NCBI GenBank assembly: GCA_004022145.1
Contig: RCNU01000003.1
Strand: one strand, 5' to 3'
DNA: 64,000 nt
Origin: Paecilomyces variotii
Taxonomy: Eukaryota
Position numbers and translations under genes: made by a program. This document shows positions 1 to 16,513 of this stretch, one piece after another. A model generated the notes under the pieces. That model saw only the letters and a program-made list of their open reading frames with translations. It did no database searches and was not told the origin of the DNA. Numbering within the stretch: the first letter of the stretch is position 1; each line of letters begins with the position of its first letter.

Positions 1-3000
1 GAGGTGGACAGGATCGCACACGCGCGACACAGGGCAAGGGTCCACGGCTGGCGGAAAGCGGAAGGCGGGAAGACGAGGGTGGGAATCCTGCTAGGATAGG
101 AAGGGTAAGAATCATAGGATAGGAATCGTGGGCAGGATGGAGATGAGTGGGTGGGAAAGAGGGAATCCGGTCATTAAGGGGGGTCGATGCGAAGTCGAAA
201 AGGAACGGTCTGTGTTGCCAGACGACGCCAAACGACCCATGGACATGGACGGGGGCCCTTGGGATGGATCACGGTTCCATGGGGGGGATCAGCTGGAGAC
301 GCTTCGGGTTGGGCGCCGTTTGGGGAGGGCCGGATGGCGAAAAAAAGGGAGAACAAGAACCAGCAGGCGAGAGAGAGGGGGAAAAGCGCGAGATAGACAG
401 AGACAGAGACAGACAGAGACACGACAAGACAAGACAGTCAAGAGCAGTCAAGAGGTTGCAGGTACGGGTCCGTAACGGGTTGCCCGTACGCCCCGTGACA
501 GGGCTGGCCCCGACAGGTGGGTTAGCCTGTGGGTATCGGGTATCTTAGTACCGTCGTACTCTAGTCCTCGAGACTGCTGCACCCGTAACGGTACCAGATG
601 TCCCCGTATGGCCAGCGTACTGATGCATCTCGGTATCGATACCGTACCGTCCCGACCCGCGTACCCTGTATCGCATCCCCATACCCTCGTATGTCCCCGT
701 CCACATGCCTCTCTCTCTCTCTCAGTCCCTCCCTCACTCACCCTCCCCCCCTTCCTCCTCAGCTCAGGCCTGGAGAGAAGCAAGTGCCAAAGACAAAAAG
801 AGAAGTAGAGTCCTCACCTGAAACGGGACGCCGTGTGGTCAGCGCCAGTAGCAGAGGCCTAGACGCCTCAAGATTTGGATGCTAGTCTCACGAGTACAAA
901 CCCAAACGAGGCAAGACAACGAACGCACGGAGAAGCGGTGCTCGGACGACGCGGCGGTGGTCAGATGGCTGCAGAGGCGGTGAGAGCGGCAAAGACAGGG
1001 GCCCGGCATGCAAGGATGGGCGAGCATATTGTTGTTATAAAGACCAGGAAGGTGACCAGCTGGCTTCGACCAACTGAACCAGACATCTTCTGGGGGGCCC
1101 ACGGTCTCGTCCGTCTACCCTCCAGGAGGGGCCACGGCCCGCGAGAGAGGGACGCAAACCATGGATGCAGAAAATTTGGGTATTTGAGGCTATAATAACG
1201 CTCCAGATGATGACTCTGATTGCCTGGTCGTCACTCACTCTTTTTCATCCTGAGAAAGCCGGAAAAAATTAAATATCTACGTCACTCTTCCTGCGGTGTT
1301 GCGGTGTGCGCCCGGGCGTCGTTCCAGTCTCTCTCCTCTATAATGGGTACCAATATTACCTGTGTCCCTACCTGATGACGGCTTACGCTGGTGCACATGT
1401 TCCTGCAGTGACTCGACGCGCTTTTTCTTGGGAGAGGGGGGGAGGGGGCTTTTTGCTTGTGGTCTGTCTGACGCTCTCCAGTCTTCCTGTTGCCCGTTGG
1501 AAGCACTACGGGAAAGCGAACCACGGAATCATGCTCAAGGCCGATTATAGGTCCCAGCGACATTCTCCAATTCTCTGGCCGTCATATAGTGTACCAAACT
1601 CCGGAGTGCTGTCTCCCGCCGTTTTCTTTTCCCTTCTCTTTCTCTGGTAGCTTGACGCCTGCTCCCCCGGGTCACATTCTTCTACATGCCCTTTCTCCTG
1701 GCAACTTGGTGGCTGACAACCGCTCGAGTCTCTGGAGCCTCTCTGGACAGAGCTTGGATACAACAGCAGCGTCACGATGCAAGCAAGCGAGGGAGGAGAA
1801 AAAAAGAAAGAAAAAGCACAAGGGTAAAAACGGGTCGGTAGGTGCTAGCGGTCCCTAAGCTGGGGCGCTTCTCCATTTCCCGTATGTCCCTGCCGCTTGA
1901 GTTTTTTCTGCAGCCAGGGGAGCAGTCTTCAGCCGGGTCCGGCTCGCTGCATAGAGCGCGGTAGTGCCCGCGTGGCCGCAGACTGCCGCCCGGGACGCAT
2001 TGGCGTTCTCAGCGACTATTGAGTCTTGACCATGGAGCCAGAGGTACAGGGTGCGGAGAGCAAGCCTCTTTCTAGCATAGTCTGACTGCTTCTGTATCTA
2101 TGCCGCGGCATCTCACGTAGGAATCTAGACGCTGTTCAGACCCGTCAGCGACTCAGCGCTCTCTTGCGGTCTCTCACCTCGGCACGATTGAGGTCGGTCA
2201 GTTGTGCACAAGCATCTACCCGTTTAGTGGGTAGTTAGATAGTGTAACCATGTTTCGGCCCCCCGAGGAGTAAGCAGCAACGGATGATAGATTTTAGCAT
2301 CGCACGGCCCTCTCATAGCTGTCTGCAGGAGTAGTAGTTACTACTACTAGGTCTTATAAGACTCTGCTAGTAGAACAATACCTCCCCAATCCCGTGTTGC
2401 TGTGGTAAGACATCTTGATATCGATGTCAGGACGATTCCATTACATCAAGACTCCTCTAAGCAGTCTAGGGATTGAAGATGATCGTAACGGCACCAAAGG
2501 TTCCTCTGTAGCACTGGTGCGTTGTTCTGGTAGACCAGATCTACAGGAGATATACCAGTAGTGGTATGTAGAGAGACCAAAGTGCCTGGCCCCTGCATTG
2601 AAGTCTTTTCACTATTAAGTAGACAATAATAATGACAGGGGCCGTATGACATACAAGGTACAGGCCACAGAAGACAGACGGGGAAATCCATCAGACGCGC
2701 GTACAGTCCAGCTTATGGATGGATATCAGGCGTGCTGTCGTCTCCTACGCTGAAGGAATTCCGCAGTGTCACGGTCGCTTAGCGATGATGGTGATGGTGA
2801 GAACACTCGGTTAGCGTGGTATGAAACAAGAAACAGGTGGATGCGATCTGTACCCCGCTGGCGACGAGTTTAGAAAATAAGCCAGAAACGGGCCGTCCTT
2901 GCAGGATGCAGAGATGCTTGGGTATAATCCCGGCTTCCATGGCGGGCTTGGATATTATGGTACCGCACATAGATAGCGATTCAGGATCGCTGCATGTCAT

Positions 3001-6000
3001 CTTTCGCCTTGTCCATGTGGGGCATAGGCGAAAAACTGTTGCAGGTCAGGATCCGGCCCGCTGGATCTTTCCGCTGGCGCGAACGGAGGCGGTTCGGAGA
3101 GAGCTGAAGACGACTACGCGGACCGCTGCCCCGTTACGGGCAGGGAACGCTCCGAACCGTGGTTGTAGAAATGGTGATTGGTGCAACCGGAAGTTACCTG
3201 TTCGTTGGGTGAATCGTGTGGCGAGTGCAAGGGAGCTGGGAGCTGAAAGCTGAGGAAATGGCTTGAAAAGACGGAAAAAAGGGAACTGCTAAGAGCCATG
3301 GAATCAGTGAACTTTAATCGACTATGGCAACGAGCTTCGCGGATCCGGACTGCTTTCCAATAAAAAGGGGAAAAAAAGAAGAAAATTCAGAACAAAAGTT
3401 GGGTCGGTGAGGATCTAAAACGTACCTGGCATCCTTGGAGATCAAAATGGTAGAGTACGAGTACTGCCTGACAATGGTCTAGGCGGTGAGGGCAGAACAG
3501 GCGCCGTATCGTCGTAGTCTCAATAATGGAGCCCCAACCGAGGAACATATCTGAAAGAAAGTCGGCAGTTAGGATAGATCTTAGGGTTGATTATCCACGG
3601 ATAGCGCCTTTGCAGATCATCCGGACACAGATCTTGAGTCATTATTTTCTATGGAAATTGGTCACGACATCAATCCTCAATTCGAGCTGGCAGCCGACAC
3701 AATGGAATGACGCTTTTTCTTTTCCGGCCTCGATTGTTCGATTCAGCTACTAGAAGTGACTGGCAAACCTCGATGCGACAGAGCATATTTCTAAAGCCCG
3801 ATGGTACGACAAGGAAAATATAAAGTGGGGAGTGAATGAAGCATAACGGCCATGGTCGTTTGATTGATGGGTTCAGAATTGCCGACTGGCGTCAATCCCA
3901 ATAGCGAAAGACGATGCCACAGGGCTAGACGCGAATCCACGGGGACCTGGGGGTCCCTCAAGCGGGTGTGCAAAGAATCATCGGTGGCTTCGTGTCGCCG
4001 TCTCGTGGCCGCCACGGCAGTGGATTGGCTGCGCGTTAAAAATTGACGAAGGAGCCCGAGTGTGATCTAACGTTTTGTGCAGGACGGCCTCTATCATCCG
4101 CGGGCCCATCGGGGAACGTGTGGAGTGCCCTAGAGTCCCAGTGCTGCAGTCCTGGGACCACGCCAAAGTCAAGAGCGCTTTTCCAGACTGATCTGTGCCC
4201 GCCCCCAAATGGCCTGGTGCATTAGCGTCCAAGTCGGCATTGAAGAAGTGAATCACAGCCGTAGCCAAGCAGCTTTCAGATGTCAAACTCCCTAGCATCA
4301 CCGCGCAGGAGACCGGGAATGACTGTAATCCGCTATGAGGGGCGGGTATTCCTATAGTGCAGCCCATTAATGACGAAGGCACAAGCGTGTTATGATGGCA
4401 GGCAAAACGTTCGAAGTAGTAGGTAGTAGTGACGGGCTTTTGACGCTTGGCCCAATCGGCTCCACCGTTGTACTGTACATTGACCGCGATGTCTTGGGCC
4501 CGGTCCGTCGCAGAGTAGACTCTAGTTGACAAACGAGGCCTCCAATCGAACGTGTTCAAGTGACTCTCAGTGCTGGTTGGCCAAGTATCCAAATTCGAAG
4601 AGAGACCAGCGTATGAAAGAAGTGTTGGTTGTTGGTGGTGTTGTTGCGTAAGCGATGAGAGTCACGCGGCATCCATTTTTGTCGTCCCGTCAGACTGACA
4701 GAGGATGCCAGATTTAGATTCGAGCAGGGAGCTAGAGTATAGTACATAGTAGTAATAAGAACACACTGCTGTACCAGAGTCAGAAAAAGTCCGTTTGTGC
4801 CAATGCTCCTTCCCTGCTGGATACCAGCGTAACATGCCTCGTCTACGCCACATGCTGTGGCGGTTATGGCGCCCAGTTAGCTCCCTGTCTAAGCATATCT
4901 ACCCTCCATTTGTTGCCAGATGTGACTTAGAGTATGCACTGTGCTCTCTAGAGTAGCGTCACTATCATGCCGCGCAAGCTGGTTGCATATTCTTAGCATG
5001 TCCACTGATGCTGGAAATGGCGGTGGAGAGTCAATAATTGTGCACTGAGCCGGGACCCTGAGCTGCGAAACATTGCCGAAATGGCATGCAAGGACCGCCA
5101 GGACAGCTGCAGTAGTGCTCTGGGTGACTAGGTAAGTAGTGTACCCTCGAATGCGCATGAGAGAGCATCAGGGGAGCTTGCTTGCTGCTCTGTTTGACCG
5201 AGTACATGTGCTGATGTACGTCTCAGTCGACCCAGATACTCTCGACTGTCCAACACGGGTACTATGACCAAATCAAATCCACACGGCCGTGTTCTGCATG
5301 CTGCTGGCGGCGTTGAGGGATTGCCCCATCGTATCAATGGCGATTTTGCGGGGTGGAAGCGCGAGTCTTGCCTCCTGAAGCGGTTAACGCACAGCGCGGC
5401 TGAGTCTACTGCAGTACTGCTACTGTAAGGCGTGCAGGCATCAGTCCATGACTCCATAGCAGTACTCTAAACAGGCGCATGGGCCCATCTCGAGTTAGCA
5501 ACTATACTTATTAGTGTGTGCAGCTGGCTTGTTGGCACATGTTCATCTATTACATCTGCTGAATTTGCTGCTTCGATTCGTCCCAGTTGGGACTGGTTCG
5601 CATACTTCCCAGCGCCATACTAGGCCTCCGTGGGGGCCGCCTCAGTCAAGGATAACCGGCAACATGATTGTTGCTGTATGCGGGCGCCTCTTCACGGGTC
5701 TTTCGGTTGCATCCTCCTTGCATGAGAACAAGCGCCAACCATGAGGTTGTCGCGTCTCTGTGGTCGCATCGCTATGTCCGGCGTTGTCGACGACGGCCCG
5801 CGCCGACCACTCCCGCCGATCTCATGCATGAGTGCTACCATAGCCATATAGCTATAGCCATGGCCATTTAGCTGCGGCCCACGATCGAATTTGGCTGCGA
5901 TTCGCGATCCCGGTTTGCTCTGGCAAATCCGGTCCTGTTCGCAGCCGCGGTCGATGTCTTACCGCTACTACTGCTGCTCCCACCCCATCCAAATCTGTTT

Positions 6001-7921
6001 CGATAGGATTCCTGCTTGAGAGCACAAACCGCAGGTTGGTCTGCAACCCTGTCTGCAAACGGTTGAATTCTATCAGCAAAATTGACTAGGATCTGCGGAA
6101 CTTGACCGATGCGGTGTGAGAGAAGACATCTAGACTTTTCATCCGCGGTTGTGCCTGTGAGCTGACATTGTCAGCCAAGCCAAAGCAAGGCGACCCGATC
6201 TAGCCATGGCAAGAACTACTATTAGTAGGCTCTCTGCAACGAGGAATAATCAGCTGATGTACTGTACTTGGAATCAGAAACCTCGCATGTTATTATAGGC
6301 CTCTTGACTGATGCTGCTACAGGTATATCTAGGTACGTGGTAGTTCACTAACTCGATCCATTGTTACAGTACAGCCGTCGGAACAGGTTTGGTATTTAAA
6401 CGGCGAAATACCAATACAGTAATATACACAACCGGCCACGGACACCGCCAAGCCTCAGCCTCTTCTGCCCGCCACGTTTTTTCGGGACCCAATCGGCGCC
6501 TCTGACCAGATGGCGTCGACGGCCGTTCCTCGCCGTCGCCCACCACCGGCGACGCCGGCACCCAATGAACGGGCGCACAGTCAGCTCGAGGGGGTTTTTC
6601 TTCCCCACAAGCAGCGCTTCTTTCCACGGTTCACCAGCACAAGGCTCGGGGCTCAACCGCCGTCCGGCGGCCCAACCTTCAGGCTGCAGCGTTGTGGCCG
6701 CCGCAGAACCATGGAGCACCCCCGGGAGTCGGGACAGCCTGGGCTTATTGAGGCGATCCCTGCTTCCCGCTGAGACCCGCATACGCTAATGATCACGGGA
6801 ACCGGGCTGGGCCTATAGCCATGCGCAACGGCATCGCCCCTTGCCAGAGTCCCCTGGCCACAGATCCCCAATCAGGCGCGCGCGTGGCCATGCGCGTCTG
6901 CGCTCCACTATTTCTGGAGGTCCGGCAGAAGGCGCGAGTGGCTGTATGACAGCAGGCCATGACCGCCTGGTTTCGGGCATCTTGTGAAAAGTGATGCATG
7001 CTCAGTAAATATCCTGGACAGGGCATGTATAGTGCCAGGATTCGGAATATGTATGCATGTCCATCCAACCCCCCTTTCGTTTGTTGATTGTTGACGTGGC
7101 CAATGCACAACAGCGTCTGCATTCATCCGGCTTTTTTCCTCGATGAACCACTACTGTACGGCCGTCGCGTGACTGGAAGGACATAGGTACATACAAAGTG
7201 CAGTGGTTTGCGCATTCGCATACCATCCGTGTATGCCAGGGGAAGATCGCACTTTTTCGCATGCTGTATCAGGAATCCAACCACGTAATATGGATGGATT
7301 CTGTACCAGCAAGCCGTGCTCTGTATCATAAAGTCGAGTTCCTTTCCTGGTAATACTACCGGACTATTATCTGATCCTGGACGTTGGTTCCAGGGTCAGG
7401 AAAGCGTAGCTCGTGCGCCACAATTATTTTCTATCTGTTTCCGCCGGGTAAGAGATCAAGCCACGTCTCCCGGGATGTGGCGCAGGGATCGAATCCCTTC
7501 AAAGCGACACATTGTTATTTAATCCTCTATCGAGATGGCTTGTTTTCTCGGAACCGAGCGAAGTGGGTCGCTTCCGTTCTCGAATCTCGATTGTCTCGTG
7601 CCCTATCCCCTTGTTCTGGAGTGGACGCGGGAAGATCGGGTCCCTGAGATGCAACCCCTACCTAGTAAACGCGGGAGGAAATAAAGGGAGCTCCTACTCT
7701 GATCGCGAAGGTAATGTATCACATTATTACTGCCCCGATGCATTTTCTCTCCTAGCCCTGCGCCGTTCTAGATCTGGTTCTTTTCTATCAGGTAAACACA
7801 CTACATTTGACGATGACACCCGCCGTCACGCTTATTGAACGTGTTCGTAGCTGTCAACATTGCAGCTTGGTAGCAAACAAGACTGAGCTATGATACTCTA
7901 GATAGTGAAAATTCGAAGGTA

Positions 7922-8267
7922 CAGTAAAACCTGCCTATAACGAACCCGGGTATAACGAATACCTCTAGATTACGAATTTGACAGCGTGTCAAAATCAAAT
8001 TCCCATACAAAATTCGTTATTCCTACCTACTACGAAATTCGTTAATTTTTTCAGACCTTTCCCATACGATTCGTTATAGAAAAGTACAGATTTACCTTAT
8101 TAGTCAGTAATTACATCATCATAAATTACCAATTAAGGAAATTTATTAGAAAATTTCACTACCAATACGTATATTACTAATATAGACCCACTTTTCATAC
8201 AACGAATCCTCTATACAACGAATTAGACTGCCTGGAAAAAATGATTCGTTATAGACAGGTTTTACTG
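7922..8267. mobile_element. Non-autonomous miniature inverted-repeat transposable element (MITE), Tc1/mariner-pogo type, 346 bp
   Basis: 23-bp terminal inverted repeats cagtaaaacctgcctataacgaa (7922-7944) and ttcgttatagacaggttttactg (8245-8267), 1 mismatch. TA on both flanks (7920-7921, 8268-8269) fits a TA target-site duplication. Interior is AT-rich, non-coding, with repeated (TA)YAACGAA/TTCGTTA motifs. Confidence 0.92.
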
Positions 8268-8617
8268 TAGTATCCGAATGTCTAAACGGGCCAAACGACA
8301 TATCTCCCTTGCATTATCCTGTCAAGATACATCAGATCTATAGCTCCATCGACGACCAGCCACAGCAGTTCAGCTTTAATCAGATGGCTGAGCTACATAC
8401 CAAAGATCTAGGCGGTTCCGGAGACGTAATAATACCTCCCTAGGACATCTATGACTGTTTCGCCGAATACATACAGTACACACTCTACAGAAGCACGGTA
8501 CTTTTGTCTAGTCGGTATAACTATTACATACTAATCAAATTCATAATGCAAGCCGCAGTTTGGTTTAAAATCCCAGCGAAGGAAATCAGTGGCTAGCATG
8601 CATTCCTTAATAAATGC

Positions 8618-8688
8618 AGCACAGCACAGCATAGCATAGCATAGCATAGCATAGCATAGCATAGCATAGCATAGCATAGCATAGCACA
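8618..8688. repeat. Pentanucleotide microsatellite (AGCAT)n with AGCAC variants at the ends
   Basis: Direct tandem repeat agcac agcac agcat agcat ... visible in the sequence. Confidence 0.95.
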
Positions 8689-9376
8689 TAAAATTAATTA
8701 CATTATTACCAACTTATCCTTTGTGTTACCTGACTACCTATAGTACTGGTATGTAGTCACACCCGGCCCGAGCCGCGCAGATTCTACCTACATAGTTCGC
8801 CAGGTTATCATGCATGTGTCCTATTTTTCGTTTCTTCTCCATAGAGAATCTGACAGCATGCAACAACGCTCAGATCAATCAATTGAGCATCCCTACCTAA
8901 CATATCCTAAAAAAACAAGTCTTCAATAATCAAGATTGTAAAATCCACTAGCTGTGCTCTGTATCATATTCCGGTTTCTCGTTAACTTTCTTTTTTCTGT
9001 TCCCACCTCCGCCCCCCTGCGCCTCTTCCGGCGGGAAGTCGCAGTACTCGTAACACCCAGTGGACCCATTTGACGTCATGCCATAGTCTAAGAGGGGAAA
9101 AGAAGCAATAGTGAGTTCGTGGGCACATCCATCGAATATACCATACTGGTATATGGTATCCCTATGGTACGGCCCAGGGGAAAGGAAAGGAAAGAAGGTT
9201 CTACTTGATTTCCTTGTTCTTGTTACTTTTTCCTCAGCTTAACATGGCAAAATGGTAAGTAGATCTATCTCACTAGTGTTTACTATGATCTTTTGTTTTA
9301 GTTTAAGGAGCTTTTTTAGCCGATCTGGTCTTTGCCAGTCGTGATAGATTCGGGGACAGTGACTAGGGCCGATCGG

Positions 9377-9402
9377 TTATTATTATTATTATTATTATTA
9401 TA
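9377..9402. repeat. (TTA)n microsatellite
   Basis: ttattattattattattattatta run. Confidence 0.9.
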
Positions 9403-11236
9403 GGTATCTAGAGAGGTTCTGATGTTTAGCTTGTATAGGAAATAATATATGAGGTTTAGCGAACTATATAGTAATTATTACTCGATGCAGTCCTTGATAT
9501 TATTGTCAAATGGAGGAGATTTTGTAGTTGAGGGATCTAGATTATAGCTACTATACTCTAGTATCTGCATTCTCATCCAGAGTATAACTGTGTTTCTTCG
9601 ATTTCCCTCTTCGCTGGTTCATACTGATGACAATAGCGTTTGGACTGACTACTACTAGTAGTAGAAGAACACTGTTATCTACGAACTAACTACTCTACGT
9701 TGTTGTTATTCTTCAAGATCACGTGTTCGCAAGACAACGGAACCAGGGTCGGAGCAAGAACGTCAAGGTTCGTAACTCTGTAATTCAGCGATATGTATCT
9801 GGGGGGATAGAGCTTCTAATTAGCACATATCGAAGACTCTTGAAAATGTAGGTGAGTTGGTCCCCGTTCATGGAATTAAGATATTACGAGTATATACTTC
9901 ATAACTCCTTTTCTTTTTAACTGGAGAAATACAGCACTCTCTACTTGCATACCACAAAAACGAAAAGTGCGTGATCGTTATACTCTCTTCGCCTATCTTC
10001 CACTGCTGCTTCGACGGAATAATAGCCCCCGACGTATCAACTACGGTTCGAGGACGAAAAGCAAAGTATCCTCGTATCGTTGTCCTGGAGAGAGTATCCG
10101 ACGAATTAAAACGGCGACAAATGTACAAGTATATAGTTTGTAAGGATATGAGATCCTTGATCATGCATGTGCACTGTAGAATATGGTTCTAACCGGTATA
10201 ACTAGATCAGGAGGTGACTATAAAGCGTGACCCTCAAGCAATGCGGTTGTTGTTTCTTGGCATCTCCTAGGATCTAATGGTTCGACATCGACGAGGATCG
10301 AACGCCTCGCATACTGCATGTATGCTAGTCTACATCCCCTAAAACACAACAGGAGCAAGAGAAAGCCCTCCAGTTCCTAAGGCAATAGCGACCCGCCCGG
10401 TTTGATTTCGGGCACTGATGCAGAAAGTTCGGCGTTCGGCAGAAGAGTGGTAAATACGAGATGGAAAGATAGACTGTATCGACAACCTGCGTTTTATTTC
10501 GCGAATTACCTGGACTGTTCCTCTGAAAAACAGGGCGAGCAGAGCCGGCCCTGACGACGAATAACATCTATAATCAGACAGATCTGCCCACATAGCAGTA
10601 GGAAATGGGGCCCCTTGATTCCTCATAGTTAGCTTTTAGATCGACCGATAACGCTGCGGAGTTAGAACCATCGTTGACGGTGCCGACTTCAAATGGCATA
10701 GTACGCAGGTCAATGGGTAATCCAGATCGAGGACCACCACGCTATGCTCAACAAACAGTCTCTAACACCAGTGACACTCCATCATAACACGGAACTGGCG
10801 GTAATGGTAAGGAGACTACTGGGAGAAAAGCAGCTATCGCGTCAGACACACATGCATATCCTAAAGCCTGCGGGGAGGAACGTAACCGCCTGGGTGACAG
10901 TCAACGCACAGGAGCAACTAGCAGCAGAAGAAGCCGGAGATATTCCCGTCCTGAGTTTGTGGAGACCGCCACGCATGCTGCGCATATTTACATGGTCGAA
11001 CGTCGGTAGAGTAATCCACAGAAGCCGAGTTGAACCAGGTTGATAGCTAAAAAGCAAAAATAAAAAAAAATTAAAAAAGAAGTAAAGGTTCAAGTGGTCC
11101 AGCGGGTCAGATCTTCCCGAGAATATCGAAATACGAGTGGGTTGCATCCGTCGTAAAAATCTGGAAAAAAAAAAGTAATATCATATAAACTATTGCAGTT
11201 AGCGGGTCTTCAAGGTCCAGTTGCCGTCCTGTCTTC

Positions 11237-14200
11237 TCAATCAACATCCTCGGTAGCCCCGTCGGATCCTGTTGAACCTTCCGATTCATCATCGTCAGGA
11301 TCTGGCATGACTATGCTGTTCAGATAAGTTACCTGTTCGAGATACCAGCGATCAGCAATAATCATCACAAACTGTGACTCCAAACTCCAGCAAGCTGCGG
11401 TGAGGGGTACTGTCGGCCAAGTGGCAAGACGCAAGCCAGCACGAAACGGTGACACGGTCAATCCCTGAAGAAGACCGTAGAACAACCGGTTGGGACCAAC
11501 GAGAGGCCTCTCAGCAACGGACATACCGCCCCAGACTGTGGGTATGGGCGGGAGATGAGAGGGCATGGGAAGGAGGGGTTAACTAGCTACAGTGACTAGC
11601 TGAGACGGCGTGCAATAATCATTCAACAGACCTGGGCCGGACACAGAGACATAGGGACCACCGGACGGCGTGGGACGACGGCTTTGGAAGACTTACAAAC
11701 GGGACCATGATTCCAATGAGCTCTGCGATCTTGTCCTGTGCGTTTGCATTCAAGAGCTCCGCGTCTGGTAGCGGCTTTCCTATGGTAAAGTTGCGCAGCC
11801 GCAACAGCTCGATGTTTTCGTGTTCTTGGTTGTAGCCCTGGGAGCCACGTCGAATAGAGTTTGTCAGTACCAAGCCCAGCCAGGAGCAGACTTCATAGCG
11901 TCGGGGTAGATGAACCGTGGACCTGGAAAAGAACGGCGTAACTCAACGCAATTTCAATGCATCTGACAGAGTTCCATGGGTAATCAAAAGCAGAATTCAC
12001 TGGGGAGTCTGGAAAGACATCCGCTGAGTTGCGGGAAGGGATCGGGCCAGCAGGGTCGGGGCGAGCGGGAAGCCTCCATCTGTAACTTCACCCGAAAAGA
12101 CGCCGTTTGCGGCTCGGTTGTCACCGCCAACAGGCTTAACTTTCGCCCACCTCACCCAGTGCAAGACGCTGACAAGTCTCTTCGATCATGGTGATGATGA
12201 TGATAATGATGACAATGATGATGCTGTTGAGGATGATAATGATGCAAGAGATTCGTGGGGATGCGGTCCTTCTCCATGACCCCTGACAGATCCTCAACCA
12301 CTGCGTCGGGGGCAGCTTGATGTGCTCTCTCAGCTTCTCATGAGGAAAGATGACATCCTCAGCTAACGAGACATACAGTCTGAGCTAACAAGGTTCCTGG
12401 AAAGGCTTGCAATACCCCAAGGAGCTGGGAAACGGGAGGCGCTCTCGTGACGGAGAGGCACGGAGAAGAACTGACATCGAACTGGCAGACTTGACCACTT
12501 CCCACATCAACCGGGAAGCGATGCCAAATCCGCGGATAACAAGATTGGAGATATCCTGAAGGGAGTGGACTGCGGTGCAGCAATTATACAATGGAGGGCA
12601 TTTGGTGGACGTACAGGGGCTGTGACAGTTGGTGATATCCCCTGGAACTCCTGCAAGGACGAGGGCGAAATTGGAACAGAATACTGACCTTCGGTTTGGT
12701 TTTTAGAGCGTTCTCGCGGTTTTGGCTGACAAAGGCCTTTACAGCTCTACTGTCGTCGTCTGAAATGCCATTAAAGAACTCCCGACGTATGCCGGCATCT
12801 CGCAACACCGTTTTTATGCGCTGCGGGTTTCGATCGATATCCTCGCGGAGGAGCGCGAGCCTGCTAGCTTCTGGCATCCACAGACCCGATCCTGGGAAAG
12901 AGAGAACGTAAATAGTCAGCCCTGCAGGAATCGTATTTCGGAAAAAAAGAAAGGAAAAAAGGAACTGTGCGCTGCTCTTCAGCAAGCGCTCTCTTCTGAC
13001 CGCCAGCCCTAGATACGTCACTGCGGCCTGACCGTCCCGCAGGACAGGAAACGGTTCGCGCCCCAAGCGACGCATATATGCAGCAGGATGGAGAAGCGGA
13101 AAGCAAGCGGAAGCCCATACTGTCGGGTCCAAGCTGGACGCTTGACCATTGTACGGGTCAGGAATAGATTGGGGTTTAAATGGTCCCACTTCATGAATTG
13201 AGTGGACACCGTTATAGACTACATACCGACAAAACAGGACCCAGGCTGCAGATGGACATAGTAGGCTGCGTAGGGCCCTTTCCTCCCGGTGCGAGACCTA
13301 TGGGCGATTTAGCTAACTTCATTAGCCGCGGTTTTCTAGGAGAACCACCCACCAGGCGGCTGAGAAATGAGTCTTCCTGCCTAGTCAGCCACGAGAATCT
13401 TATCAAATACATGGAAGCTGCAGCGCGAGGCGTACCGGCCTCCCGGGAATGAAGTGTAAACTAGACATACCTTATATGGTGTTGGATCGTTGCTGAACCT
13501 GATGTCGCGGTGAATGCGAAAGACCTGCGCGATCGTGCCCCATTAATATCCGCGGTGACCATTGTATCTGCCGCAGGGACTCCCTTACCAAGTCCTTGGC
13601 AGGCAATTCGGGTATTGTCTCGTCCTTTTCAATGACTTTTTCAGTGAGACTGTCGACGAACGAGTCCCAGTCCTTTTTTGCCGCACGATAGTCCGCATCA
13701 TGGGCTTTATGCACTCTAGCGTCAGATCATCCGTCGCGGACATATAATGGGATGCTCTTTATAACTACCTTTGAGCCATTGTCTCTCATTGTTCTCCTTC
13801 AGGTCTTGGAGAAACAACATGGTGTTGGGATGGATCGTCTGGTCCTGGTAAGGCGTGTTTCCCGGATCTCTGGCCTTGGGCTTTTTGATGAAGACTTGTT
13901 TGCCTGGCCCCAGTCCAGTGCGCACTCCTTCCCTCCACAGTTCCTTACCTTTGGTGGCGGCCAGAATTTCATCGTCTTCTTCTTGCTCATGAGTTTGCGC
14001 CTCAGGCTTTTTGCCTTTCGCGGATCCGCGCCTTGCCTGTCCTTTCTTGCTTTGCTTTGGAGCGTCGTCCTCCTCGTCGGGTGTCTCGGAATCCTGCTCT
14101 GAGGACGAAGACTCGACATTGTATGCGGAGCCCGATTCCTCCGGCGCAGAATCTGATTGTGACTCCGTTGCGGTCCCAGGCCGTTCGGAAACAGAATCCT

Positions 14201-14387
14201 GGAAATACTTGCTGGTCTTCGCAGTGGACCTGATGGGCCTTTCCCCGGCAGCAGGAGACCCAGCTTTCTGTCTCTTGGAACTCGACGCTGCGGCAGTAGT
14301 GTCGAGGGGCGCGGACGGGCGCCTCTTAGGCGTCGGCGCGGCAGCCGCAACTGACTGGGGCACCACCCGCGACGATCGACGAGGCAT
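11237..14387 (-). CDS. DUF2461 (TIGR02453-like) conserved hypothetical protein with a low-complexity charged N-terminal extension; 8 exons
   Basis: Exons approx. 14387-13769, ~13704-13589, 13524-13471, 13372-13353, 13297-13227, 12891-12689, 11837-11697, 11332-11237. They join in frame: FLQDLKENNERQWLK..HDADYR..VFRIHRDIRFSNDPTPYKTHFSAAWSRTGRKGPYAAYYVHLQPGSCFVGSGLWMP..LKTKPKGYNQEHENIELLRLRNF..VPFVTYLNSIV. FRIHRDIRFS..PYK and LKT.PKGY match my recollection of DUF2461. The intron 1 acceptor is uncertain by 9 nt. Confidence 0.88.
12186..12245. repeat. Imperfect (GAT/ATC)n microsatellite inside DUF2461 intron 6
   Basis: gatgatgatgataatgatgacaatgatgatg...gatgataatgatg. Confidence 0.85.
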
Positions 14388-15169
14388 GACAATGTTTTAA
14401 GATGCGTTGTGACGATCGACTGGGCTGGAAGCTTCGAAGCTACAGTATCCGTGATCGGACGGATAGCCAAATCCTATACAGTCGACTGCGGAGCGCAGCG
14501 TTATAAAGGCATGCGCCAAAACAAGGAAGCTTGACCACTGGACGGGATCCAGTGCGGGAGATGGACAAAGGGACCGCGGAGCGACCAGGGAACCGGTAAC
14601 TCATTAACTTACGGGGCGGGAGACCTTTTCGCGTGGCAGCCTCGAGTCCCTCTTTTCTGCTTGCGCCGGCGTCGACACCGTCAGGGAGCTTAACTAGCGC
14701 AATCTATATCCCGCCGTAGCTATCACGTCTGAAGAACGAAATCGGGTAATTCACTAGGCTTACTTCCGACGAGGGGATGTCCCAGCAGTAGCAGACCACC
14801 GCAGGAGAAGAAGTAACCAATTGCAGTCTGGAAGGGAAAGAATAGATATAGTAATCCTCTAGGTCTCTAATCCAAACATCAGATGAAAAGAACACGCCTT
14901 GACGCGCAGAATGAAGTTGGCGCGCTCTTTCGGGCGTAATGAAGTGATCGTTTAATGATTTAGTGGCCGCGCTTGAACCCTAACCAATCAGAACGCCGTC
15001 TTCCCCACAAAACCACATTTTTATCTCTATCGACCCCTCCAGCCAAAAATCCAGAAGCCCTTGGATTTGCGCTAATAATAACAATAACTACAGATCATTC
15101 TTATTACTATCACTATCATTATTATCACCATACATAATACAATAATAATATGATATGACATGAAATGAA

Positions 15170-16513
15170 ATGAACACTCACGCCACCCCCACCCTCCCTG
15201 GCGCCAGCCAACCTCTCCAGAATACAACTAAAATCCCCGCGAGTTTCGAGTCGCGCAAACGCAAAATCCTTGCGGAACTCTCCGTCCCAGATGCAGAGTA
15301 TACAGATCTCTCCCCCAAGGGCTCTGTCGATGAGGGGATCAGGGACCTCATTCGTAACATCAATGGCTTGTCAGGTCTGGTTACCACGAGCAGTTGTGCG
15401 GGTAGAGTGAGTGTGTTTCTGGAGGGGCGGAAGAAGAAAAAGGAAAAGCAGAAGAAAAACATTACTGCTGCTACTTCGAATATGAAGACCACTGATGATG
15501 AGGAGGAGGGAGATGAAGATGATACAGAGCGCCAATTTGCATCTACTGGAGGAAAAGGAGGCGGGCGATGGCTCTATGTCTCTCATGATCCGGTCAAAGT
15601 GACAGAGGCGGGAGATTCAGAGGAATCTCGATCGTTTCACGAGCTATTTGGAATGGCTCCTAGAGATGGAAATCTTACTTCTTCTTCTTCTACAGATCAG
15701 AAGAAGAAGAAGAGGGATGGGCTGCGTCTTGTTCATTTCCGTTTCGAACCTATGGTATGTTTTTTTTTCTTCTTCTTTGGTATAGTTCAGTTAGAAGATT
15801 ACTGCGTGGATTGGAAAAGAAATTGATAATTTGCTTTTTTTCCCTTGTTGTTTTGTATTTTCTTCACGTGGTTCTATCTCTACCCTGCATTTAGCACCAT
15901 GCAATAACCCAGTCTCGATATCGTCTCAACTTGAAAAAAAAATCAGCTATACTAACTACATCTCCAGATCCTCCACATCATGACCGCCACTCTCCATCAC
16001 GCACAACCCATCTTAACAGCCGCATTCAGCGCCGGGTTTCGTGAAAGCGGTCTCCAAAGCCTCCGCTGCCTGTCAGATGATATGGAAACAAGCCCTATCG
16101 TCGCGGTCCGATCATCAGGCTTATCTCTAGAATCTATCATCGGGTATTGTGACGACAGTAGCAGCAACGACGACTCCTCACCCATCATCCGTAGCCTTGT
16201 CACGGAAGAATACCTCCGCATGCTGGTCGAGATTGCGAATGAGCGGTTCAGCGTGAATACGGAGCGAGTAGAGCGGTTTCGGACGAAGTTGCTGGATTTA
16301 GGTTCTGTCTCGATGGGTGACAACTCGTTGTCGAAGGGAGGAAAAGGACGGGCAAAGCCTGCGGGGTGGGAAGATGAGGCGACGAGACGGGAGAGGAAGA
16401 GGGCTGAGGGCCTGGCCAGGCAGAAGGCGTTGTTGGAAGCAAGAGGTGTAGCACGAGGAAATGACGGTCTGGATCAAGCTGGTGATGAAGAAATCGCAAC
16501 TGTTTTCGAGTAG
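15170..16513 (+). CDS. TYW3: tRNA wybutosine-synthesizing protein 3 (tRNA-Phe methyltransferase)
   Basis: Exons 15170-15754 and 15968-16513 (intron gtatgt...ctaac...ccag). Motifs DLSPKGSVD, TTSSCAGR, FRFEPMILHI, GFRESG and IVAVRS are TYW3 hallmarks. Confidence 0.93.

What the first reader, a model, noticed from the sequence alone, without database searches (positions are those of the whole stretch)
11333..13226. Three consecutive oversized, structured introns in a DUF2461 gene: candidate intronic RNA / regulated-splicing system
Seen: introns 1-4 of this gene are ~55-100 nt, like most introns in the window. Introns 5, 6 and 7 are 335 nt (12892-13226), 851 nt (11838-12688) and 364 nt (11333-11696). 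They are GC-balanced rather than AT-rich, show no transposon ends, and contain many local hairpins. Each also has an internal AG-(3 to 13 nt)-GTATG cassette (donor-like sites near 13120, 12376 and 11526, minus strand). Established: enlarged fungal introns commonly host snoRNAs or other ncRNAs, riboswitches, nested (stwintron) introns or autoregulatory cassette exons. Inference: the same architecture three times in a gene of unknown function suggests a splicing-level control circuit or a host gene for uncharacterised RNAs.
Basis: partly seen in the sequence, partly recalled or inferred. Interest (0 to 1): 0.75.

Follow-up and report, generated by a model that had tools for sequence, protein, structure and literature searches.

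The report
Conserved long introns, overlapping antisense RNA
The last three introns of this fungal gene of unknown function really are unusually long and have stayed long in distant relatives, but they are ordinary spliced introns without folded or known RNAs inside, and the one extra RNA seen is an antisense transcript crossing one of them.

Summary
The gene is real: 8 exons on the minus strand (14387..11237), 439 aa, DUF2461. RNA contigs join all seven introns exactly, including the 335-, 851- and 364-nt ones.

The "structured RNA / splicing cassette" reading fails. Folding is no better than shuffled controls (z -1.4, +2.8, -0.1). Rfam finds nothing. The three introns share no sequence. None of the three internal AG..GTATG sites is spliced in the four runs laid, and none is conserved in the nearest relative.

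Two things are new. First, introns 5 and 6 are long at the same positions in all four other fungal lineages recovered (intron 5: 192-422 nt; intron 6: 588 to at least 997 where enough contig was held; one contig ends after 255 nt). Intron 7 is complete only in L001 (297 nt). Introns 1-4 stay at 54-143 nt. Intron sequence is hardly conserved.

Second, a plus-strand transcript with its own GT..AG intron (13261/13270-13325) and a poly(A)-like end at 13764 overlaps intron 5 to exon 2.

Best reading: canonical long introns kept long for a DNA-level or regulatory reason, possibly antisense transcription as in A. nidulans meaB. Interest is modest.

The parts
11237..14387 (-). DUF2461 (PF09365) gene, CDS from ATG to stop. 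Eight exons: 14387-13769, 13704-13589, 13524-13471, 13372-13353, 13297-13227, 12891-12689, 11837-11697, 11332-11237. 1320 nt, 439 aa.
   Evidence: Spliced by coordinates. Exon pieces hit PF09365 contiguously: profile 21-57, 109-157 and 159-205, at 25.8, 31.2 and 30.8 bits against a cut-off of 22.8. All seven junctions appear as contig joints; X17 record 6 spans exon 1 to exon 6.
12892..13226 (-). Intron 5, 335 nt, GTATGT..CAG, branch-like CTGAC near the 3' end. Also present unspliced in RNA contigs.
   Evidence: Joint 12890->13226 (skips 335) in X17 and X19. Unspliced contigs: X19 record 11 (12863-13255, depth 23), X17 record 5 (depth 8.7), X24 record 15. z = -1.37.
11838..12688 (-). Intron 6, 851 nt, GTCAGT..CAG, branch-like ACTGAC. 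Contains a GAT-rich microsatellite at 12175-12253.
   Evidence: Joint skipping 851 in X17, X19 and X24, from three studies. z = -0.08. Repeat family D1.
11333..11696 (-). Intron 7, 364 nt, GTAAGT..CAG. Its acceptor AG is directly followed by GTAACT.
   Evidence: Joint skipping 364 in X17 (side 144). X19 shows another pattern instead. z = +2.76.
13353..13372 (-). 20-nt microexon 4 (codes ..HFSAAW), conserved in L001, L003 and L005.
   Evidence: Joints 13372->13471 and 13295->13351 in X17.
13261..13325 (+). Intron of an antisense (plus-strand) transcript. Donor GTAGGC at 13261 or GTAGGG at 13270, branch-like GCTAAC, acceptor AG at 13325.
   Evidence: Plus-strand GT..AG joints 13260->13326 (X19) and 13269->13326 (X24), from two studies. 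Sequence read.
12863..13764 (+). Minimum extent of the antisense RNA seen in contigs. It keeps sense introns 2 and 3 unspliced and ends with a non-templated A-run behind 13764. The start is not resolved; it lies in exon 6 or intron 5, i.e. between 12689 and 13226.
   Evidence: X19 records 11, 12 and 13 and the loose end at 13764. X19 has no cover in 11840-12687 (table 2). The longest ATG ORF is 48 aa.
10839..11236 (-). 3' UTR of the sense mRNA, with the poly(A) site at about 10839.
   Evidence: T-run loose end before 10839 in X17. X19 record 8 starts at 10839.
13119..13175 (-). Conserved island in intron 5 (72% over 58 columns against L001). A second island lies at 13010-13040 (75%).
   Evidence: blastn E = 2e-8.
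12026..12067 (-). Conserved island in intron 6 (34 nt at 85% against L001). It lies in the 344-nt stretch 11838-12181 that has no listed difference to the strain in X15.
   Evidence: (E = 7e-6); table 3.
11516..11567 (-). Conserved C-rich island in intron 7 (about 70-78% against L001). It includes the GTATGT at 11526, which reads GCATGT in L001.
   Evidence: (E = 7e-7).

Best explanation
These are three ordinary U2-type GT-AG introns. Each is removed in one step from the mRNA of a DUF2461-family gene in a Paecilomyces-like (Eurotiales) fungus. They are old. Every intron position that could be examined is shared with the orthologues: all seven in L001, introns 1-6 in L003 and L005, introns 5-6 in L004. 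Introns 5 and 6 have stayed several times longer than the usual fungal intron in every orthologue recovered, while their sequence drifts almost freely. They hold no folded RNA, no known RNA family, no cassette exon and no transposon. So something other than an RNA structure keeps them long. The most likely reason (inferred, not shown) is that they serve as regulatory or spacer DNA for transcription on the other strand. A spliced, polyadenylated, non-coding antisense RNA starts in the exon 6 / intron 5 zone, just downstream of intron 6 on the plus strand, and runs back across the 5' half of the gene. This is the arrangement described for meaB in Aspergillus nidulans, where an antisense RNA starts at an unusually long (331 bp) sense intron. 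Shown: gene model, exact splicing, lack of structure, length conservation, existence of an antisense splice. Inferred: that the length is under selection, that the antisense promoter lies in these introns, and that the antisense RNA affects the sense gene.
For: Exact joints for all 7 introns, with the 851-nt skip in 3 studies. Exons map contiguously on PF09365, so no coding sequence is hidden in the introns. Intron lengths i1-i7: window 64, 64, 98, 55, 335, 851, 364. L001: 75, 69, 90, 54, 323, 783, 297. L003: 102, 57, 143, 55, 422, about 588, >=70. L004: i5 402, i6 >=255. L005: 99, 69, 99, 59, 192, >=997. In A. nidulans the median intron is 59 bp and 95% are 46-228 bp (PMC4046813, passages read). 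Public protein models of 120 relatives carry insertions of 8 aa or more at the i6 (12 models, up to 207 aa) and i7 (9 models, up to 104 aa) positions, against 1 each at i1 and i2 and 0-2 inside exons. This fits long introns there that are hard to predict. No excess folding in the window or in 8 orthologous introns (z -0.98 to +1.79). Rfam: nothing above chance. Antisense: plus-strand GT..AG joints in X19 and X24 with a GCTAAC branch-like site; the same X19 contig keeps sense introns 2 and 3; a non-templated A-run follows 13764; no ORF above 48 aa. Precedent for meaB: PMC4046813.
Against: Nothing links the antisense RNA to intron length. Its acceptor is not conserved in L001, and no RNA data exist for the relatives. 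The start of the antisense RNA is not mapped; contigs cannot give strand or ends except through splice-site letters and tails. The unspliced intron-5 contigs could be retained sense pre-mRNA instead. Only four other lineages were recovered, and two contigs end inside intron 6. The L003 intron 6 acceptor could not be placed in frame. Between the window and the strain in X15 the long introns differ at about 1.3% of sites (20 of about 1490 nt), like the downstream spacer (9 of 709) and the short introns (5 of 281). That shows no sequence constraint, and the count uses only the 40 of 74 difference rows that one search printed. Joints were laid at 92% likeness and several have sides under 30 nt, which the tool warns about. 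X15 is a DNA-like contig in an RNA library and says nothing about expression.
Confidence: 0.5

Rival explanations
1. Neutral relics. The common ancestor happened to have long introns at these sites, and they have simply not shrunk yet. The antisense RNA is transcriptional noise of the kind common in fungi and has nothing to do with them.
For: Near-neutral divergence of the long introns between strains (table 3). No motif shared among distant orthologues. Lengths vary widely (intron 5: 192-422; intron 6: 588 to >=997). The antisense acceptor is not conserved in L001.
Against: All lineages recovered keep introns 5 and 6 long where enough contig was held, while introns 1-4 of the same genes stay at 54-143 nt. 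The intron sequences are past alignability in L003-L005, so many indels must have happened without collapse to the usual size. Each long intron keeps one island that is significantly conserved against L001.
Confidence: 0.25
2. Regulated splicing. Intron 5 retention, which meets a stop after two codons, and alternative junctions in intron 7 tune the amount of productive mRNA, perhaps with nonsense-mediated decay.
For: Unspliced intron-5 contigs have depths similar to spliced ones in X19 (23 against 16-22) and X24 (36.5 against 33.6). X19 record 10 joins exon 7 to 11435 (non-canonical end), then removes 11332-11278 (GT..AG), giving another C-terminus. AG..GTATG sites: 3 against 0.39 expected.
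Against: None of the 3 proposed internal donors is used in the 4 runs. None is conserved in L001. GTATG occurs 0 times in 10 orthologous long-intron sequences, against about 1.5 expected. The intron-5 contigs are at least partly explained by the antisense RNA. The odd intron-7 form is one contig in one metatranscriptome with a non-canonical end. Contig depths cannot rank isoforms.
Confidence: 0.15
3. Host gene for a new small or structured RNA (snoRNA, riboswitch or other) processed from one of the long introns.
For: Long fungal introns often host snoRNAs (established knowledge; six intron-spanned snoRNA loci are mentioned in PMC4046813). Intron 5 has a hairpin whose stem letters are kept in L001 while the loop differs. 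One local window, 12468-12587, has z = -2.46.
Against: No Rfam hit at gathering score in the window or at E<=1 in the four loci. The only hit touching an intron is 16.7 bits against a gathering score of 60. No excess folding in any of 11 long-intron sequences. No 8-mer is shared among distant orthologues, though a conserved rRNA guide would leave one. The stem has no compensatory change. The z = -2.46 window lies in the most variable part of intron 6.
Confidence: 0.05
4. Complex or mobile introns: stwintrons (nested introns) or introner-like elements.
For: Donor-like hexamers occur inside introns 6 and 7. The intron 7 acceptor is followed by GTAACT, and a 55-nt GT..AG skip starts there in X19.
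Against: Donor, branch-like site and acceptor of all three introns are uninterrupted. The introns resemble neither each other nor anything else in the window. Their positions are shared with distant relatives, so they are not recent gains.
Confidence: 0.03

Closest known systems
meaB (AN4900) of Aspergillus nidulans: antisense transcript initiating at a long first intron (Sibthorp et al. 2013, PMC4046813; passages read)
   Same: A Eurotiales gene with an intron far above the 59-bp median (331 bp there; 335, 851 and 364 nt here). A non-coding antisense RNA starts at or next to that intron and runs back over the upstream exons.
   Different: There the long intron is the first one, it carries GATA motifs, and the antisense RNA was shown by northern blot to respond to nitrogen. 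Here the long introns are the last three, the antisense start is only bracketed (12689-13226), no regulator or condition is known, and strand is inferred from splice-site letters and an A-tail in contigs.
Cis-natural antisense transcripts of filamentous fungi (e.g. Neurospora crassa, PMC3951366; Ustilago, PMC3739942; search listing and abstracts only)
   Same: An independently spliced, polyadenylated, non-coding RNA overlapping a protein-coding gene on the other strand.
   Different: Nothing is known here about function or regulation. Conservation was seen only in a relative that differs by about 6% (X24).
Spliceosomal twin introns (stwintrons) of Pezizomycotina (PMC5639578, PMC6616335; abstracts only)
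   Same: Oversized fungal introns containing extra splice-site-like motifs.
   Different: A stwintron has a donor, branch point or acceptor interrupted by an internal intron. Here all three signals of each intron are intact, and no intermediate or internal junction at the proposed sites is seen.
snoRNA-hosting introns of Aspergillus (Rfam Afu_* families)
   Same: Larger-than-average introns in a housekeeping-type gene.
   Different: No match reaches a gathering score, there is no conserved guide-length word among orthologues, and there is no excess folding.

Membership tests
U2-type GT-AG spliceosomal intron | GT at the 5' end, AG at the 3' end, and exact excision in RNA | tested here: met
   GTATGT..CAG, GTCAGT..CAG and GTAAGT..CAG. 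Contig joints skip exactly 335, 851 and 364 nt.
U2-type GT-AG spliceosomal intron | Branch-site motif (CTRAY) a short way upstream of the acceptor | tested here: met
   CTGAC, CTGAC and CTGAT read within about 20-35 nt of the three acceptors. All three are kept in L001. The consensus itself is recalled knowledge.
DUF2461 / TIGR02453 (PF09365) | Match to the Pfam profile above the gathering score | tested here: met
   The exon 2, 6 and 7 pieces score 25.8, 31.2 and 30.8 bits against 22.8 and cover profile positions 21-57, 109-157 and 159-205. 120 listed homologues all carry PF09365.
Stwintron | A donor, branch point or acceptor of the outer intron is interrupted by an inner intron | tested here: not met
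   All signals are contiguous in the DNA. The definition is taken from the abstracts.
Introner-like element | Many sequence-similar copies at new, lineage-specific intron positions | tested here: not met
   No similarity among the three introns or to the rest of the window. The positions are shared with L001, L003, L004 and L005. Genome-wide copy number could not be tested because no genome is held.
Intron-hosted snoRNA or other Rfam family (including the fungal TPP riboswitch) | Covariance-model match at the gathering score | tested here: not met
   0 matches in the window at gathering score. 4 chance-level matches at E<=10 in 10500-14800, and only one touches an intron: 11330-11372, at the 3' end of intron 7, 16.7 bits against a gathering score of 60. 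0 matches at E<=1 in L001 and L003-L005.
Structured ncRNA (generic) | Folding energy below dinucleotide shuffles, and/or covariation | tested here: not met
   z = -1.37, +2.76, -0.08. Local mean z is +0.36, with 1 of 39 windows below -2. Orthologues give -0.98 to +1.79. Covariation could not be tested: only two sequences align.
Cassette or poison exon inside the introns | Junctions that use the internal acceptor and donor | tested here: not met
   No joint at 13120, 12376 or 11526 in 4 runs. Contigs drop rare forms, so low-level use is not excluded.
Cis-natural antisense transcript | RNA from the opposite strand overlapping the gene | tested here: met
   GT..AG joints readable only on the plus strand, in 2 runs from 2 studies. 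The same contig leaves sense introns 2 and 3 unspliced. There is an A-tail behind 13764. Stranded reads were not available.
Recursive splicing site | Acceptor AG directly followed by a donor GT that is used after the first step | tested here: inconclusive
   AG|GTAACT lies at 11333/11332, and a 55-nt GT..AG skip from 11332 appears in one X19 contig. In that contig the upstream part of intron 7 is kept, and L001 has GTTACA there.

The most novel reading that the evidence does not exclude
The block of long 3' introns is a conserved platform for antisense transcription, or another length-dependent DNA-level control, of the fungal DUF2461 gene. On this reading, selection across Pezizomycotina has kept intron length and position but not sequence, because the antisense promoter and first exon must sit inside the gene body. 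That would make this orthologue a tractable case of selection on intron length in compact fungal genomes.
Probability: 0.2. Interest if true: 0.5.

Novelty: new member of a known kind. Interest (0 to 1): 0.3.

Why it matters
Fungal introns are almost uniformly tiny, so a block of long introns that stays long across distant lineages while its sequence drifts is a small natural experiment on why intron length is ever kept. It also has a practical side. These introns and the 20-nt microexon mislead gene predictors: the closest named public model (511 aa against 439 aa here) reads through intron 5, and about a tenth of the 120 homologous models carry spurious insertions at these positions. Correct models of this widespread family of unknown function need RNA evidence. 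No new kind of RNA or mechanism is shown.

Tried and rejected
- Whole genome of the window: none is held. Dispersed copies of the introns and the genome's own intron-length distribution could not be examined.
- Rfam at permissive and gathering thresholds: nothing.
- Repeats or transposon ends and similarity to the rest of the window: nothing.
- tblastx among all long introns for a hidden or antisense coding gene: only the same short window-L001 blocks.
- Five-way alignment of intron 5: 49% mean column identity. Apart from the splice-site letters (GT, GT at 5-6, AG), only six scattered single columns are invariant, and none forms a block.
- Shared k-mers: none beyond chance.
- An automatic splice-model search for L003 and L005 crashed, so boundaries were read by eye. 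The acceptor of L003 intron 6 stays unresolved: the nearest AGs are out of frame with exon 7.
- PDB sequence search with the exon 6 peptide: no meaningful hit.
- Literature search for 'DUF2461': 4 papers, none by title on a fungal gene or its introns (listing only).
- Parts without contig cover (introns 6 and 7 in X19, most of the gene in X24) are not used as evidence of absence. X24 is a roughly 6% divergent relative, and many of its contigs probably fell below the 92% filter.
- X15 covers the whole stretch as one unspliced contig with an adapter-like end and is treated as DNA-like.
- The high summed depth over exon 6 in X17 was not interpreted, because other organisms' contigs may add to it.
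- The open frame through intron 5 (see Noticed in passing) was considered as an alternative coding isoform and rejected, because it is not open in L001.
- Supplementary files of the papers were closed. Supplements of PMC4046813 may hold intron-length and antisense tables that bear on how common such cases are.
Full report
**1. What is there**

Reading the minus strand and splicing by coordinates gives an eight-exon gene from the ATG at 14387 to the stop at 11237.
- The CDS is 1320 nt and the protein 439 aa.
- The introns are 64, 64, 98, 55, 335, 851 and 364 nt.
Intron 3 ends at 13373, not 13377, because exon 4 is a 20-nt microexon (13372-13353).
- Translated exon pieces match Pfam PF09365 (DUF2461) above its cut-off. 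They cover adjoining profile positions: exon 2 at 21-57, exon 6 at 109-157, exon 7 at 159-205. No coding sequence is therefore hidden in introns 6 or 7.
- The closest named homologue of exon 1 (85% identity) is an uncharacterised protein of Paecilomyces variotii. Thermoascus, Rasamsonia and Aspergillus follow at 50-58%. The window thus comes from a Paecilomyces-like member of the Eurotiales.

**2. RNA evidence**

The stretch 11000-14600 is held by 20 listed runs. Four were laid on 10000-15500 at 92% likeness; all are Logan contigs.
- X17 shows every sense junction: skips of 64, 64, 98, 55, 335, 851 and 364 nt, all CT..AC on the plus strand. Its record 6 runs from exon 1 to exon 6 through the microexon.
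- The 851-nt skip also appears in X19 and X24, and the 335-nt skip in X19.
- The sense mRNA ends at about 10839 (T-run loose end).
- X15 is a single unspliced contig with an adapter-like end. I treat it as DNA in an RNA library.
- Caveats: several joints have sides under 30 nt, the likeness threshold was below 95%, and contigs cannot rank isoforms.

**3. Tests of the 'structured intron / cassette' reading**

*Folding*
- Whole-intron z-scores against dinucleotide shuffles are -1.37, +2.76 and -0.08.
- In a 120-nt sliding scan, the 39 windows centred in the long introns average z = +0.36. One falls below -2 (12468-12587, z = -2.46).
- The 47 other windows of the gene average -0.14, with two below -2.
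- On the antisense strand, 0 of 39 windows fall below -2.
- Eight orthologous long introns give z from -0.98 to +1.79.

*Known RNA families*
- Rfam gives four chance-level hits at E<=10. Only one touches an intron: 11330-11372, 16.7 bits against a gathering score of 60.
- Nothing in the window reaches a gathering score.
- The orthologous loci give nothing at E<=1.

*Repeats*
- There is one GAT-rich microsatellite at 12175-12253 and no inverted repeats.
- The introns resemble neither each other nor anything else in the window.

*Internal AG-(3..13)-GTATG sites*
- They exist at 13120, 12376 and 11526. They are nominally enriched: 3 observed against 0.39 expected, P = 0.0064, and 0 of 5000 resamples have one in each intron.
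- The pattern was chosen after seeing the data.
- No RNA joint uses any of the three sites.
- None is conserved in the nearest relative.
- GTATG occurs 0 times in 10 orthologous long-intron sequences, against about 1.5 expected.

**4. Orthologues**

A metagenome scan with the exon 6 peptide returned five loci. L001 and L002 are identical, and L001's exons best match the Thermoascus aurantiacus protein P0002. L003, L004 and L005 are more distant: 63%, 61% and 57% identity in exon 6, with no close match among 120 mostly Eurotiomycete proteins.

Every intron position that could be examined is shared, including the 20-nt microexon in L001, L003 and L005.

| Locus | i1 | i2 | i3 | i4 | i5 | i6 | i7 |
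|---|---|---|---|---|---|---|---|
| window | 64 | 64 | 98 | 55 | 335 | 851 | 364 |
| L001 | 75 | 69 | 90 | 54 | 323 | 783 | 297 |
| L003 | 102 | 57 | 143 | 55 | 422 | about 588 (acceptor not resolved in frame) | >=70 (contig end) |
| L004 | - | - | - | - | 402 | >=255 (contig end) | - |
| L005 | 99 | 69 | 99 | 59 | 192 | >=997 (contig end) | - |

- In A. nidulans the median intron is 59 bp and 95% lie between 46 and 228 bp (PMC4046813, passages read).
- Introns 5 and 6, the two positions seen in more than one relative, are therefore long in every lineage recovered, while the first four stay short. Intron 7 is complete only in L001 (297 nt).
- Indirect support comes from 120 public protein models. 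Insertions of 8 aa or more occur in 12 models at the intron 6 position (up to 207 aa), 9 at intron 7 (up to 104 aa), 5 at intron 5 and 13-15 around the microexon. Only 1 model each has one at introns 1 and 2, and 0-2 at four mid-exon controls.
- The P. variotii model (511 aa) reads through intron 5.

**5. Sequence conservation**

Against L001, global alignment identity is as follows:

| Feature | Identity to L001 |
|---|---|
| Exons | 64-86% |
| Short introns (1-4) | 49-57% |
| Intron 5 | 61% |
| Intron 6 | 49% |
| Intron 7 | 54% |

- Away from the splice sites, only short islands are significantly similar: 13175-13119 and 13040-13010 in intron 5, 12067-12026 in intron 6, and 11567-11516 in intron 7. 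Local blastn E-values are 2e-8, 7e-6 and 7e-7.
- L003-L005 do not align and share no k-mer beyond chance. That argues against a conserved snoRNA-type guide.
- Against the roughly 1% divergent strain in X15, the differences printed (40 of 74 rows shown) put about 20 in the long introns, 5 in the short introns, 9 in the 709-nt downstream spacer and 6 in 937 nt of exons. This looks like near-neutral drift.
- Thirteen of the intron 6 differences fall in 12288-12665 and none in 11838-12181. That contrast was noticed after the fact.

**6. The extra RNA**

- X19 and X24, from different studies, each have a joint that reads GT..AG only on the plus strand: 13260->13326 and 13269->13326. A GCTAAC branch-like site lies 12 nt before the acceptor.
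- The X19 contig with this joint leaves sense introns 2 and 3 unspliced. A neighbouring contig ends at 13764 with a non-templated A-run.
- X19 has no cover between 11840 and 12687, so this antisense RNA starts within exon 6 or intron 5.
- Contigs covering intron 5 unspliced (X19 depth 23, X24 36.5, X17 8.7) may belong to the antisense RNA, to retained sense pre-mRNA, or to both.
- The spliced antisense model has no ATG ORF above 48 aa.
- X17 also shows plus-strand A-tailed ends at 14741 and 14889.
- The acceptor of the antisense intron is not conserved in L001.

**7. Other oddities in the RNA**

X19 record 10 joins exon 7 to 11435 through a non-canonical skip (GT..TG on the minus strand). It keeps 11435-11333, then removes 11332-11278 (GT..AG). 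The acceptor of intron 7 is directly followed by GTAACT. This is one contig in one metatranscriptome and stays unexplained.

**8. Interpretation**

- Shown: three canonical, exactly spliced long introns; no excess structure; no known RNA family; no use or conservation of the proposed cassettes; long length at the intron 5 and 6 positions in four other lineages, and at the intron 7 position in L001; an overlapping spliced antisense RNA.
- Inferred: selection keeps the length, and the reason is at the DNA or regulatory level. The most concrete candidate is the antisense unit, by analogy with meaB of A. nidulans, where an antisense RNA initiates at a 331-bp intron (PMC4046813).
- The main rivals are neutral persistence and regulated retention or alternative splicing. 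An intronic ncRNA and nested or mobile introns are unlikely.

**9. Comparison and novelty**

- Long introns next to antisense start sites, and antisense transcripts in general, are known in fungi (PMC4046813; listings and abstracts).
- Stwintrons are defined by an interrupted splice signal (abstracts), which is not met here.
- A search for 'DUF2461' found 4 papers, none by title about a fungal gene or its introns (listing only).
- Earlier notes of this scan concern bacterial DUF2461-McrB fusions only and were not tested here.
- I file this as a new member of a known kind, with modest interest. The conserved intron length is the part worth a follow-up.

Noticed in passing
window 13353-13372 (minus strand): A 20-nt microexon (..HFSAAW) is conserved in L001, L003 and L005 and confirmed by an RNA contig. 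13-15 of 120 public protein models of relatives carry insertions around it, so it is often mis-annotated.
   Followed up: partly
window 12584-13297 (minus strand): A 237-codon open frame runs from the first base of exon 5 through all of intron 5 into exon 6 in the correct frame. Skipping the 20-nt microexon and retaining intron 5 (-20 + 335 nt) would therefore stay in frame. The public Paecilomyces variotii model (P0001, 511 aa) follows part of this path. It is not open in L001, so it is probably chance.
   Followed up: partly
window 11278-11435 and 11696 (minus strand): X19 record 10 joins exon 7 to 11435 by a non-canonical skip of 260 nt, then removes 11332-11278 (GT..AG) starting right after the normal intron 7 acceptor (AG|GTAACT). 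It would give a different C-terminus. It is seen in one contig of one run.
   Followed up: no
window 14246-14889 (plus strand): X17 contigs end with non-templated A-runs behind 14741 and 14889. This suggests polyadenylated plus-strand RNA running out through the promoter of the DUF2461 gene, perhaps longer forms of the same antisense RNA.
   Followed up: no
window 11838-12688: Differences to the strain in X15 are very uneven within intron 6: 13 listed in 12288-12665 and none listed in 11838-12181. The quiet stretch holds the only island conserved with L001. Only 40 of 74 difference rows were printed.
   Followed up: partly
window 12175-12253: A GAT/GATGAT-rich microsatellite lies inside intron 6 (His-rich or Asp-rich if translated). 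Read laying skipped it as a repeat, and contigs break there.
   Followed up: no
L003 2908-3497: The acceptor of intron 6 in L003 could not be placed in frame with exon 7, because the nearest AGs are 1 or 2 nt off. The cause may be another microexon, a contig error or a decaying gene.
   Followed up: no
window 1-64000: No Rfam family reaches its gathering score anywhere in the 64-kb window.
   Followed up: no
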